Shown piece by piece: positions 12,476 through 13,129 of a stretch of 64,000 nucleotides of DNA. Within the stretch, counting starts at the first letter, position 1; each line of letters starts with the position of its first letter. Made by a program: the position numbers and the translations under genes. The notes under the pieces are model-generated. The model made no database searches and had not been told where the DNA came from. It was given only the letters and a program-made list of their open reading frames with translations. Source of the stretch: a virus; the IMG/VR virus record IMGVR_UViG_3300045988_077276, positions 1 to 64,000 of that record; one strand, given 5' to 3'.

Positions 12476-13129
12476 AATACTGTAGTTAAGTGCTACGCCT
12501 CCTTTCTTAACATAGCCGATGCAAGTGGTTGCCCCTACTTGCGTTGGCACACATGGACTGTTGCTGGGTTATGGTCAAAATTTGCATAAATTGTCATGTC
12601 TGACCGACAGGTTCGATTCCTGTGCAGTTCTACTTTTTCGCTACTGCAAGCGAACAAACGTTTATCGAAAGTGTGCTTGTTGTACACATCCAAAAAGACA
12701 ACACGTGTTAATTGATTACACGACAACAAATCAAACATACGGTGCTTGCTGCCGTCACTCAGTAAGCGTTATATGTGACGAGAAAACATATCAGAGATAA
12801 CTGTAAACCATCACTAGAGATGTAAAAAAAGCAAGTTTCTGATAGCCTTGATAAAACTAACAGGGTTGTGCCATTCCATAATCGCACCGCAAGACAATGC
12901 GACAACAATCATATGTAGAAATGTAGGTTTTATTACCATACTACGAACTACGAATTTCTTACTGCCGTCAGACCAGACGTTAAAATCCGCAGTCGTTGAA
13001 GTGCGATAAGCAACGAAGTCTATAGACATCTACCGCCGATGCGTATAGACGTATACACACATGAAGACACCTAGATTGCAATCTTTGGGTGGTTGAATGA
13101 TGCAACAAGGTTTGCATGGCGGTAGACAT
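12476..13129 (+). ncRNA. candidate large structured non-coding RNA (class unknown; ROOL/GOLLD-type context)
   Basis: There is no SD-preceded ORF here. Many hand-foldable helices exist, e.g. 12994-12998/13011-13015, 13100-13105/13112-13117, and a long-range 9 bp helix TCTACCGCC 13029-13037 / GGCGGTAGA 13118-13126. It lies in a phage tRNA operon. Confidence 0.4.
12555..12631 (+). ncRNA. non-canonical tRNA-like element (acceptor + T arm, no recognisable anticodon arm)
   Basis: GGACTGT (12555-12561) pairs with GCAGTTC (12624-12630), including 2 G-U pairs. The T arm is ACAGG-TTCGATT-CCTGT (12607-12623). I could not fold a 5 bp / 7 nt anticodon arm, and no CCA is encoded. Confidence 0.3.

What the first reader, a model, noticed from the sequence alone, without database searches (positions are those of the whole stretch)
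12476..13129. Candidate large structured ncRNA upstream of the tRNAs (ROOL/GOLLD-like genomic context)
These ~650 nt have only SD-less, overlapping ORFs on both strands but many stable helices. Examples are 12994-12998/13011-13015, 13100-13105/13112-13117, and a 9 bp long-range pairing TCTACCGCC (13029-13037) with GGCGGTAGA (13118-13126) that closes a multi-helix domain just before tRNA-like element A. Large ornate RNAs of the ROOL and GOLLD classes are known to sit in phages and prophages of Firmicutes next to tRNA genes. I cannot verify membership from memory of their consensus.
Basis: partly seen in the sequence, partly recalled or inferred. Interest (0 to 1): 0.7.

Follow-up and report, generated by a model that had tools for sequence, protein, structure and literature searches.

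The report
New structured RNA in Veillonella phages
The flagged 650 bases are a real, conserved, non-coding structured RNA that sits between tRNA-like elements at the head of a phage tRNA cluster; it is not ROOL or GOLLD, matches no described RNA family, and its function is unknown.

Summary
The 9-bp pairing 13029-37/13118-26 closes a four-way junction whose three inner helices covary in 23 distinct relatives. The region is non-coding, because both ORFs are destroyed in relatives, and it is structured on the + strand. It lies downstream of a conserved promoter, upstream of four tRNAs. It is not ROOL or GOLLD: there is no Rfam hit at E<=10 here or in four relatives, while a control phage contig scored ROOL at 296 bits and GOLLD at 153 bits in the same run.

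The anatomy, in order:
- a promoter;
- a leader (hairpin, an invariant 18-mer, hairpin);
- a tRNA-like element without a normal anticodon arm;
- a ~400-nt chain of small hairpins and two pseudoknots, whose modules are swapped among near-identical phages;
- the four-way junction;
- 3 nt later, another tRNA-like element lacking the anticodon arm.

The likely mechanism, which is inferred, is that RNase P and RNase Z cut at the tRNA-like elements and release a ~0.5-kb RNA. The element occurs only in one uncultivated phage clade. Type III-A CRISPR spacers assign that clade to Veillonella, and one spacer targets the leader. This is a new RNA family in a known genomic niche.

The parts
12447..12475 (+). 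Sigma-70-type promoter: TTGACT, a 17-nt spacer, then TATTAT preceded by TG. The transcription start is predicted near 12480.
   Evidence: Promoter scan. TTGAC and the -10 region are conserved in all relatives of both subgroups (alignments).
12481..12497 (+). Leader hairpin P0. Its sequence differs between the two phage subgroups, but a hairpin is always at this position.
   Evidence: RNAalifold pairs 55-60/66-71 of A1. Subgroup 2 has ACCAAGG...CCUUGGU at the same place.
12498..12515 (+). An 18-mer, CCUCCUUUCUUAACAUAG, identical in almost all clade members (two carry a 1-nt change). It is predicted to be single-stranded. Its first 10 nt read like the 3' tail of 16S rRNA, and UUUCUUAACA resembles boxA. 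Its function is not established.
   Evidence: Present in all 28 distinct sequences allowing up to 2 differences; exact in all but L014 (one substitution) and L030 (one extra U). A 21-nt exact match lies inside the tRNA/ROOL/GOLLD array of the unrelated contig L037. It is covered by a Veillonella type III-A CRISPR spacer. The distant relative L034 has UUCCUUUCAAUGU in the same place.
12515..12548 (+). Leader hairpin P1', 14 bp in the window. Subgroup 2 has a 9-bp hairpin of different sequence at the same place.
   Evidence: 100% of cells are paired and 3 pairs changed on both sides (helix 1).
12555..12630 (+). tRNA-like element. Acceptor stem 12555-61/12624-30; T arm 12607-11/12619-23 with the T loop UUCGAUU. 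It has no normal anticodon arm. It is preceded by ACAUG, as are most of the tRNAs and tRNA-like elements in the island.
   Evidence: Three pairs in the acceptor and three in the T arm changed on both sides between the subgroups (helices 2 and 3). Only a weak tRNA-Sec-like Rfam score (17.3 bits). ARAGORN does not call it. Repeat families D3 and D12 show the shared ACATGG junction.
12631..13028 (+). Body: a chain of small hairpins and two H-type pseudoknots joined by A-rich linkers.
- Helices: 12637-41/12650-54; 12671-76/12682-87; 12704-08/12718-22; 12739-43/12751-55; 12771-75/12787-91 (loop UGACGAGAAAA); 12792-94/12801-03; 12809-12/12819-22.
- Pseudoknot 1: 12832-35/12847-50 with 12839-45/12857-63.
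- Further helices: 12868-74/12881-87; 12888-91/12898-901; 12966-69/12976-79.
- Pseudoknot 2: 12988-91/13002-05 with 12994-98/13011-15.
- Palindrome GUCUAUAGAC at 13018-27.

Positions 12631-12735 occur only in subgroup 1.
   Evidence: On 41 distinct variants (200-451 nt), 89.7% of cells are paired against at most 45% in the slid controls. Twenty-six pairs changed on both sides against at most 9 in the controls, and 0 of 500 shuffles reached this. The only invariant body columns are the hairpin stem with its flank (GUCA...AGACG..AAAA), about 12967-12985.
13029..13126 (+). 3' four-way junction.
- P1: 13029-37/13118-26, invariant.
- P2: 13043-47/13052-56, loop GACG.
- P3: 13066-76/13081-94, apical loop UGCA.
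- P4: 13100-05/13112-17, which stacks directly on P1.
   Evidence: 99.3% paired; 9 pairs changed on both sides in P2-P4. Model R1 finds exactly one copy per phage of this clade and none elsewhere. The domain is 84-88% identical to subgroup 2, against 46-50% identity at four-fold degenerate sites of the adjacent DnaB gene.
13130..13188 (+). A 59-nt tRNA-like element with acceptor stem, D arm and T arm but no anticodon arm. It starts 3 nt after P1 and is the presumed RNase P site that makes the 3' end of the large RNA.
   Evidence: Rfam tRNA score 48.4 bits, with the anticodon arm deleted in the alignment. ARAGORN does not call it. It is conserved in relatives. In every relative checked, a tRNA or tRNA-like element begins 3-4 nt after P1.
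13189..14341 (+). The rest of the non-coding island, given for context.
- Two paralogous ~100-nt spacer RNAs: 13189-13290 and 13409-13508.
- A tRNA-like element with a ~65-nt insert: 13291-13408.
- tRNA-Met, Ser, Asn and Ser: 13509-13851.
- A spacer RNA: 13852-14030.
- A 57-nt tRNA-like element without an anticodon arm: 14031-14087.
- A spacer, and then a second promoter at 14307-14335.

Best explanation
Window ~12480-13129 is the untranslated front part of a 1.9-kb RNA island (12431-14341). The island lies between a DnaB-like helicase gene and an exonuclease-like gene in an uncultivated ~65-72-kb Veillonella phage.

Shown:
- A conserved promoter precedes the region.
- The elements then run in order: a short leader; a tRNA-like element without a normal anticodon arm; a ~400-nt chain of small hairpins and two H-type pseudoknots; and a ~100-nt four-way junction.
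- The junction's closing stem ends 3 nt before the next tRNA-like element.

Inferred:
- The whole island is transcribed as one long untranslated precursor together with the four tRNAs.
- Host RNase P cuts at the 5' end of every tRNA and tRNA-like element, and RNase Z or exonucleases trim the 3' sides.
- The tRNA-like elements without anticodon arms would then act as punctuation. They would release a discrete RNA of about 0.5 kb (about 12631-13129) and several ~100-200-nt RNAs further downstream.
- The conserved leader 18-mer may be a boxA-like signal that keeps RNA polymerase from terminating on this untranslated transcript.

More speculative: the released RNA acts in trans. The near-invariant four-way junction and the invariant CCGUCA...AGACGUUAAAA hairpin would be fixed binding sites for a protein or RNA partner. 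The rapidly exchanged hairpin and pseudoknot modules would be the variable, host-facing part. The partner and the physiological role are unknown.
For: Non-coding: both ORFs decay in relatives, and neither has a Pfam match.

Structured on the + strand:
- 3' junction: 99.3% paired, 9 pairs changed on both sides.
- Leader hairpin and tRNA-like element: 98.2% paired, 9 such pairs.
- Body: 26 such pairs against at most 9 in the slid controls.
- Covariance model: 116.5 bits on + against 19.7 on -.
- G-U pairs are frequent; on the other strand they would be A-C mismatches.

Under selection: the 3' domain is 84-88% identical to subgroup 2, where four-fold degenerate sites of the adjacent DnaB gene are only 46-50% identical.

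Transcription: the promoter is conserved and all tRNAs lie on the same strand. Four of four phage-matching spacers in Veillonella type III-A arrays are antisense to the + strand, and one covers the leader. Type III guides must pair with a transcript (PMC9297841).

Punctuation:
- Both flanks of the body are tRNA-like elements with a 7-bp acceptor stem and a 5-bp T arm carrying a canonical T loop.
- In every relative checked, a tRNA or tRNA-like element begins 3-4 nt after P1, although which one it is varies: tRNA-Ser, tRNA-Gln, or a tRNA-like element.
- Most elements are preceded by ACAUG.

Not merely a tRNA leader: the distant relative L034 keeps the promoter, the leader and ~560 nt of non-coding sequence but has no tRNA at all.
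Against: - There is no expression or end-mapping data. Processing by RNase P and RNase Z rests on resemblance to tRNA alone.
- The closing helix P1 never varies, so covariation does not support it directly.
- Much of the covariation separates just two subgroups, so the number of independent events is smaller than the cell counts suggest.
- Body modules are freely lost (200-451 nt across variants). One metagenome contig, L199, lacks the 3' strands of P4 and P1. Large parts therefore look dispensable.
- The match to boxA is only partial.
- No candidate partner was identified, and the RNA occurs in a single phage clade.
Confidence: 0.55

Rival explanations
1. It is a divergent member of the ROOL or GOLLD RNA families.
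For: It has the same genomic niche (phage, next to tRNAs) and a similar size (PMC12286853). L037, a phage contig that carries both ROOL and GOLLD, shares the 18-21-nt leader motif.
Against: No ROOL or GOLLD match at E<=10 in window 12300-14600, and none at E<=1 in relatives L002, L016, L023 and L034. The same call scored L037 at 296 bits for ROOL and 153 bits for GOLLD. Apart from the short leader motif and tRNA T arms, there is no sequence similarity to L037.
Confidence: 0.02
2. It is only a cis-acting leader and spacer of the tRNA operon, possibly built from decayed tRNA genes. On this view the structure serves antitermination, correct processing or protection from exonucleases, and the excised RNA has no function of its own.
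For: The region is flanked and interspersed by tRNA-like elements. The 3' junction has a cloverleaf-like layout, with P4 stacked on P1 and a 5-nt linker between P3 and P4. Body modules turn over quickly and the length ranges from 200 to 451 nt. The leader motif is boxA-like; the gamma-proteobacterial consensus is GYTCTTTAANA (PMC5725501).
Against: The 3' junction and several loops are conserved far above the neutral level. They are invariant in sequence, not only in pairing. L034 keeps a long non-coding RNA region after the same kind of leader but has no tRNA to serve. Conserved tRNA-like elements without anticodon arms make more sense if what lies between them matters.
Confidence: 0.25
3. It is an RNA decoy against host defence. 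One version is an RNA anti-CRISPR that mimics host CRISPR repeats; another is a sponge for a host RNA-binding factor.
For: The hairpin modules are swapped between phages whose DnaB proteins are 97-98% identical, a pattern expected in an arms race. The host carries type III-A CRISPR arrays that target this phage clade.
Against: Nothing in the island resembles either Veillonella CRISPR repeat. No other mimicry was found. A spacer against the leader shows that the RNA is a target, not that it is a weapon.
Confidence: 0.08
4. The signal comes from DNA, not RNA. The region would be an origin of replication, a packaging site or an operator region next to the replication genes.
For: It lies between the helicase gene and an exonuclease-like gene. 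It contains conserved palindromes: GTCTATAGAC and AGATTGCAATCT.
Against: The pairing depends on G-U pairs and is strand-specific (116.5 bits against 19.7). Compensatory changes preserve RNA helices, including pseudoknots. The promoter and the tRNAs fix the transcribed strand.
Confidence: 0.04
5. It encodes one or more small proteins (ORFs 12519..12800 + or 12814..13029 -).
For: The ORFs exist in the window.
Against: The + ORF has a stop at codon 2 in 12 of 16 subgroup-1 sequences and no start codon in subgroup 2. The - ORF is 2-30 aa in most relatives. Neither has a Pfam match.
Confidence: 0.01

Closest known systems
ROOL RNA (Rfam RF03087)
   Same: A large (~0.5-0.6 kb), pseudoknot-containing non-coding RNA encoded by phages next to tRNA islands, with no known function (PMC12286853).
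   Different: No covariance-model match. The structure supported here is a chain of local modules plus one four-way junction, not one conserved ornate fold. It is found in a single phage clade. Whether it oligomerises is unknown.
GOLLD RNA (Rfam RF02032)
   Same: A phage RNA in tRNA arrays with a conserved 3' part and a variable 5' part. tRNAs can be embedded in or adjacent to it (PMC12286853).
   Different: No covariance-model match. It is smaller. Its conserved 3' part is a ~100-nt four-way junction unrelated in sequence.
tRNA-like processing signals: plant mitochondrial t-elements, the mitochondrial tRNA punctuation model, MALAT1-mascRNA and the MHV68 tRNA-miRNA transcripts
   Same: tRNA-shaped elements that are not used in translation define the ends of neighbouring RNAs through RNase P and RNase Z (t-elements: PMC1920247; the other examples are from general knowledge). 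Here, conserved tRNA-like elements without anticodon arms bracket every structured spacer RNA.
   Different: All those systems are eukaryotic or organellar. Processing has not been shown here. To my knowledge, comparable dedicated tRNA-like elements without anticodon arms have not been described in a phage, but I could not check this exhaustively.
Stable RNAs of unknown function inside the phage T4 tRNA gene cluster (species 1 and 2, rnaC and rnaD)
   Same: Non-tRNA stable RNAs co-transcribed and co-processed with phage tRNAs. This comparison rests on my own knowledge and was not checked here.
   Different: The T4 RNAs are ~120-140 nt and unrelated in sequence. The element here is about 0.5 kb and modular.
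rrn / lambda nut antitermination leader (boxB hairpin followed by boxA)
   Same: A hairpin followed by a conserved single-stranded U/C-rich motif ending in UUAACA, at the start of a long untranslated transcript. The boxA consensus is GYTCTTTAANA (PMC5725501).
   Different: The match to the consensus is only partial. The consensus comes from gamma-proteobacteria, not Veillonella. The motif also begins with CCUCCUUUCU, which reads like the 16S rRNA 3' tail. NusB/NusE binding is untested.
Upstream pseudoknot domain plus tRNA-like structure of plant virus 3' UTRs (TMV, TYMV)
   Same: A series of small pseudoknots immediately upstream of a tRNA-like structure. This comparison rests on my own knowledge.
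   Different: Those are the genomes of eukaryotic RNA viruses and act in translation and replication. Homology is not expected.

Membership tests
ROOL (RF03087) | Match to the family covariance model at or above the gathering score (99.1 bits) | tested here: not met
   No hit at E<=10 in window 12300-14600 and none at E<=1 in L002, L016, L023 and L034. The positive control L037 scored 296.4 bits in the same run.
ROOL (RF03087) | Encoded in phages or prophages, often next to tRNA islands | tested here: met
   Phage genes are present: large terminase, portal and tail proteins. Four tRNAs lie directly downstream. The niche is described in PMC12286853.
GOLLD (RF02032) | Match to the family covariance model at or above the gathering score (150 bits) | tested here: not met
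   No hit. The control L037 scored 152.8 bits.
ROOL / GOLLD | Assembly into RNA-only homo-oligomeric cages | not testable with these tools
   This needs cryo-EM or SEC-MALS. The only observation here is that self-complementary motifs are conserved: the UGCA loop of P3 and the palindrome at 13018-27.
tRNA (RF00005), applied to the flanking elements | Complete cloverleaf with an anticodon arm and a 7-nt anticodon loop | tested here: not met
   13130-13188 and 14031-14087 reach 48-52 bits, but the anticodon arm is deleted in the alignment. 12555-12630 scores only 17.3 bits, as tRNA-Sec. ARAGORN calls none of them.
tRNA-like RNase P / RNase Z substrate | A 7-bp acceptor stem stacked on a 5-bp T arm with a canonical T loop, plus GG in the D loop | tested here: met
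   The sequence shows these features, and the acceptor and T arms covary. Actual cleavage was not tested.
tmRNA | tRNA-Ala-like domain with G3:U70, a tag reading frame, and detection by ARAGORN | tested here: not met
   ARAGORN finds no tmRNA. None of the four tRNA-like acceptor stems has G3:U70, read directly from the sequence.
Hammerhead ribozyme | The CUGANGA ... GAAA core around three helices, with invariant G12 | tested here: not met
   CCGAUGA-P2-GAA resembles the core. However, the G12 position is A in the window and several relatives, U4 is C, and the junction has four helices. There is no Rfam ribozyme hit.
boxA antitermination signal | Match to the boxA consensus (GYTCTTTAANA in gamma-proteobacteria) near the 5' end of an untranslated transcript | tested here: inconclusive
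   UUUCUUAACAU matches only partially. The position after a hairpin fits. L034 has CCUUUCAAUGU in the same place (PMC5725501). The consensus for Veillonella is unknown.
RNA anti-CRISPR (CRISPR-repeat mimic) | Sequence and structure similarity to a CRISPR repeat of the host | tested here: not met
   No similarity in the island to either Veillonella repeat.
Protein-coding gene | An open reading frame conserved among relatives | tested here: not met

The most novel reading that the evidence does not exclude
This is a previously undescribed class of large phage RNA. It would be cut out of a long untranslated transcript by the host tRNA-processing enzymes, at dedicated tRNA-like elements without anticodon arms. 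That would make it a phage counterpart of mitochondrial tRNA punctuation and of MALAT1-mascRNA. The released ~0.5-kb pseudoknot-rich RNA would act in trans during infection of Veillonella. It would use its invariant four-way junction and self-complementary loops to bind a partner or to self-assemble, as ROOL and GOLLD do.
Probability: 0.3. Interest if true: 0.8.

Novelty: new variant of a known kind. Interest (0 to 1): 0.62.

Why it matters
Large structured RNAs in phage tRNA islands, such as ROOL and GOLLD, are among the most striking bacterial RNAs with no known function. A third, unrelated family in the same niche would suggest that the niche itself matters: co-transcription and co-processing with tRNAs. 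It would also offer a smaller, modular example to dissect.

The conserved tRNA-like elements without anticodon arms give a concrete and testable processing mechanism. The host assignment to Veillonella parvula/hominis, an abundant oral and gut genus, rests on type III-A CRISPR spacers. It tells experimenters which bacterium to use, and it shows that the leader of this RNA is itself seen by an RNA-guided immune system.

Tried and rejected
- ROOL, GOLLD and all other Rfam families: no hits beyond tRNA, with a positive control in the same run.
- Protein coding: rejected.
- Cultured relatives: GenBank phages share only tRNA pieces. The best DnaB match is 22% identical and the best terminase match 36%.
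- Prophage copies: the 3' domain pattern is absent from 185,579 representative bacterial and archaeal genomes.
- Wider distribution: the 3' domain pattern and model R1 find only this clade in IMG/VR. They find nothing downstream of 57 distant DnaB homologues, and nothing in L034 or L037.
- Leader 18-mer: not found in GenBank phages.
- Hammerhead-like core in the junction: rejected because the catalytic G position varies.
- tmRNA: rejected (no G3:U70).
- CRISPR-repeat mimicry: rejected.
- Long-range helices from the single-sequence MFE and from RNAalifold that involve promoter DNA or the tRNA-like acceptor strand: discarded as artefacts. They are invariant and absent in subgroup 2.
- cas genes in two Veillonella genome pieces: none found there. 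Cas10/Csm1 and Cas6 were then found on the metagenome contigs L156 and L180.
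Full report
**1. What is in the window**

Positions 12431-14341 form a 1.9-kb gap with no long ORF. The gap lies between a DnaB-like helicase gene (11273-12430; Pfam DnaB_C, E = 5e-23) and a 292-aa gene with weak similarity to exonucleases. A sigma-70-type promoter sits at 12447-12475. ARAGORN finds four tRNAs at 13509-13851: Met, Ser, Asn and Ser. Rfam's tRNA model also matches two shorter elements, 13130-13188 and 14031-14087, in which the whole anticodon arm is missing. 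It matches 13294-13346 weakly. The finding (12476-13129) is therefore the first third of a non-coding island that also holds tRNAs and tRNA-like elements. All 28 ORFs of at least 200 aa in the window are on the + strand. They include a large terminase, a portal protein, a primase and tail proteins, so this is a phage genome.

**2. Checking the observation**

The + strand folds to -184.5 kcal/mol, with z = -4.82 against dinucleotide shuffles. The - strand gives z = -2.87.
- The + ORF has a stop at codon 2 in 12 of 16 close relatives, and no start codon in the second subgroup.
- The - ORF shrinks to 2-30 aa in most relatives.

**3. Relatives**

The helicase protein retrieved 34 IMG/VR loci. DNA patterns later added more viral and metagenome contigs. 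Two subgroups share the element: one with 91-98% DnaB identity to the window, the other with 79-83%. A single more distant phage, L034 (52%), has a related leader but not the rest. No cultured phage is close. The 3' domain pattern is absent from the representative bacterial genomes. Within subgroup 1 the helicase is 97-98% identical in most members, yet the RNA region is only 75-95% identical, with whole segments exchanged. The region is a mosaic.

**4. Anatomy supported by comparison**

(a) *Leader, 12481-12554.*
- It starts with a hairpin whose sequence differs between subgroups.
- Next comes the 18-mer CCUCCUUUCUUAACAUAG (12498-12515), identical in all but two clade members, which each carry a 1-nt change.
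- A second hairpin follows (12515-12548).
- The leader ends in CACACAUG.

(b) *tRNA-like element, 12555-12630.*
- It has a 7-bp acceptor stem and a 5-bp T arm with the loop UUCGAUU, but no normal anticodon arm. In subgroup 2 it is only 58 nt long.
- For the second leader hairpin, the acceptor stem and the T arm together, 98.2% of cells are paired and 9 pairs changed on both sides. The slid-partner controls gave at most 1.

(c) *Body, 12631-13028.*
- There are 41 distinct variants, 200 to 451 nt long.
- I defined 15 helices on the window sequence, including two H-type pseudoknots: 12832-63 and 12988-13015.
- On the 41-sequence alignment, 89.7% of cells pair, against 16-45% when the partners are slid. 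Twenty-six pairs changed on both sides against 3-9 in the controls, and none of 500 shuffles reached the observed values.
- Subgroup 2 has different sequences that form a pseudoknot at the same position as 12988-13015, and it has an extra pseudoknot module that the window lacks.
- The only invariant columns of the body are the hairpin stem with its flank (GUCA...AGACG..AAAA).

(d) *3' domain, 13029-13126.*
- It is a four-way junction. P2, P3 and P4 are hairpins, and P4 abuts P1 with no linker.
- On 23 distinct sequences, 99.3% of cells pair and 9 pairs in P2-P4 changed on both sides. None of 500 shuffles reached this, and the slid controls gave 0-2.
- P1 is invariant in 30 distinct variants, apart from one mismatch in L055.
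- A covariance model built from this alignment scores 116.5 bits on the + strand and 19.7 on the - strand. It finds one copy per phage and none outside the clade.
- Between the window and subgroup 2, the domain is 84-88% identical. Four-fold degenerate sites of the adjacent helicase gene are only 46-50% identical. The domain is therefore under purifying selection or spreads horizontally.

**5. The flanks suggest how the RNA gets its ends**

In every relative I checked, a tRNA or tRNA-like element starts 3-4 nt after P1. Which one varies:
- a 58-nt tRNA-like element without an anticodon arm;
- a 117-nt tRNA-like element with an insert;
- tRNA-Ser or tRNA-Gln;
- an uncalled cloverleaf with an encoded ACCA end.

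Most elements in the island are preceded by ACAUG. The tRNA-like elements without anticodon arms are themselves well conserved. They keep what RNase P and RNase Z need: the acceptor stem stacked on the T arm, and the D-loop/T-loop elbow. They lack what translation needs.

The most economical reading is that they are processing signals. They would punctuate a long untranslated precursor and release the ~0.5-kb RNA (about 12631-13129) and the smaller spacer RNAs downstream. This step is inferred; I have no end-mapping data. Plant mitochondrial t-elements are a documented precedent for tRNA-like processing signals (PMC1920247).

**6. Known families**

Rfam 15 gave nothing but tRNA, both at gathering thresholds over the whole window and at E<=10 in 12300-14600. 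The same held at E<=1 for four relatives. Contig L037, an unrelated 122-kb phage contig fetched because it shares the 18-mer, scored ROOL at 296 bits, GOLLD at 153 bits and drum RNA at 46 bits, plus more than 30 tRNAs, in that same call. That is a clean positive control, so the RNA is not ROOL or GOLLD. I also considered and rejected tmRNA, a hammerhead-like core in the junction, and mimicry of host CRISPR repeats.

**7. Host and an independent hint of transcription**

- *The spacer.* The metagenome scan for the 18-mer returned three contigs in which the motif lies inside a CRISPR spacer.
- *The host.* The repeat core occurs only in Veillonella parvula, V. hominis and Veillonella sp. genomes.
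- *The CRISPR type.* The contig with that spacer encodes Cas10/Csm1 next to the array (741 bits), and a Cas6 gene lies between the two arrays of another contig. The repeat ends in ACGGAAAC, the 5' tag of Streptococcus thermophilus type III-A crRNAs (PMC9297841).
- *Orientation.* Read in that orientation, all four spacers that match this phage clade are antisense to the + strand, including the one over the leader. Type III systems need a complementary transcript. This fits + strand transcription of the leader and identifies Veillonella as the host. Four out of four is only suggestive.

**8. The leader motif**

CCUCCUUUCU is, from my own knowledge, the 3' tail of 16S rRNA in many Firmicutes. UUUCUUAACA resembles boxA; the gamma-proteobacterial consensus is GYTCTTTAANA (PMC5725501). 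L034 has UUCCUUUCAAUGU between two hairpins at the same place. That keeps the boxA-like half but not CCUCC. L037 has a 21-nt exact match between two tRNAs, on the tRNA strand, just after a GGGC-GAAA-GCCC hairpin. I favour a boxA-like antitermination signal for a long untranslated transcript, but this remains open.

**9. Function**

Nothing here identifies what the released RNA does. The pattern is an invariant junction and one invariant hairpin, combined with rapidly exchanged hairpin and pseudoknot modules in otherwise near-identical phages. That fits a trans-acting RNA with a fixed binding platform and a variable part that faces the host. It fits almost as well a processing and stability scaffold with little function of its own. 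L034 keeps a long non-coding RNA without any tRNA, which tips me towards an independent function. My confidence in each part is:
- about 0.9 that this is a real + strand structured non-coding RNA;
- about 0.6 that it is released by tRNA-processing enzymes;
- about 0.3 that it acts in trans.

**10. Verdict**

It has a testable processing mechanism and an unknown role.

Noticed in passing
window 13130-13188 and 14031-14087; also 12555-12630 and 13291-13408: Conserved tRNA-like elements, 57-59 nt long, with acceptor stem, D arm and T arm but no anticodon arm. One further element carries a ~65-nt insert with a second T-arm-like hairpin where the anticodon arm should be. Rfam scores the short ones at 48-52 bits; ARAGORN ignores them. 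They cannot decode, so they are likely processing signals or mimics.
   Followed up: partly
window 12498-12515; L037:9451-9471; L034:7265-7285: The leader 18-mer CCUCCUUUCUUAACAUAG is identical in almost all clade members. It recurs as a 21-nt exact match inside the tRNA array of an unrelated 122-kb phage contig that also carries ROOL, GOLLD and drum RNA. It reads both like the 16S rRNA 3' tail and like boxA.
   Followed up: partly
L156:4149-4193 (also in L172 and L180); Veillonella loci L204-L225: A Veillonella type III-A CRISPR array (repeat GTTAAATTAAATAATCCCCATTAGGGGACGGAAAC, next to Cas10/Csm1) holds a ~45-nt spacer against the leader of this RNA island. Three more spacers match other parts of clade phages. 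All four are antisense to the + strand. This assigns the phage clade to Veillonella.
   Followed up: yes
window 13189-13290 and 13409-13508: Two paralogous ~100-nt spacer RNAs lie between tRNA-like elements. Each starts with UAAAUC followed by a 9-bp hairpin with the loop GUCGCAA or GUCGCUA, and the two copies differ by compensatory changes. A UAAAAUCC-type motif recurs about six times across 12431-14341.
   Followed up: no
window 12431-13135 compared with 11273-12430, in L001-L013: The helicase protein is 97-98% identical among these phages, but the adjacent RNA region is only 75-95% identical at the DNA level, with blocks exchanged. The 3' domain variants do not follow the helicase phylogeny. 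This indicates frequent recombination within the island.
   Followed up: partly
L199 (metagenome contig OWLH01000004.1), 3' domain: One natural variant lacks the 3' strands of P4 and P1. The sequence runs straight into a tRNA-Ser variable arm and T arm. It is either a real deletion or an assembly chimera.
   Followed up: no
window 13018-13027 and 13071-13082: Two self-complementary motifs are kept self-complementary through compensatory changes. GUCUAUAGAC alternates with GUGUAUACAC and GCUAUAGC, and AGAUUGCAAUCU alternates with GGUUGCAACC around an invariant UGCA loop. They could be weak hairpins or RNA-RNA dimerisation sites.
   Followed up: no
L034:7138-7750: The most distant relative (DnaB 52% identical) has the same promoter-hairpin-motif-hairpin leader, then ~560 nt of non-coding sequence. 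It has no tRNA and no recognisable 3' junction, so it may carry a different RNA in the same slot.
   Followed up: partly
window 14307-14335: A perfect consensus promoter (TTGACA, 17 nt, TATAAT) sits directly upstream of the next gene. No terminator-like site separates it from the RNA island, so read-through from the island promoter is possible.
   Followed up: no
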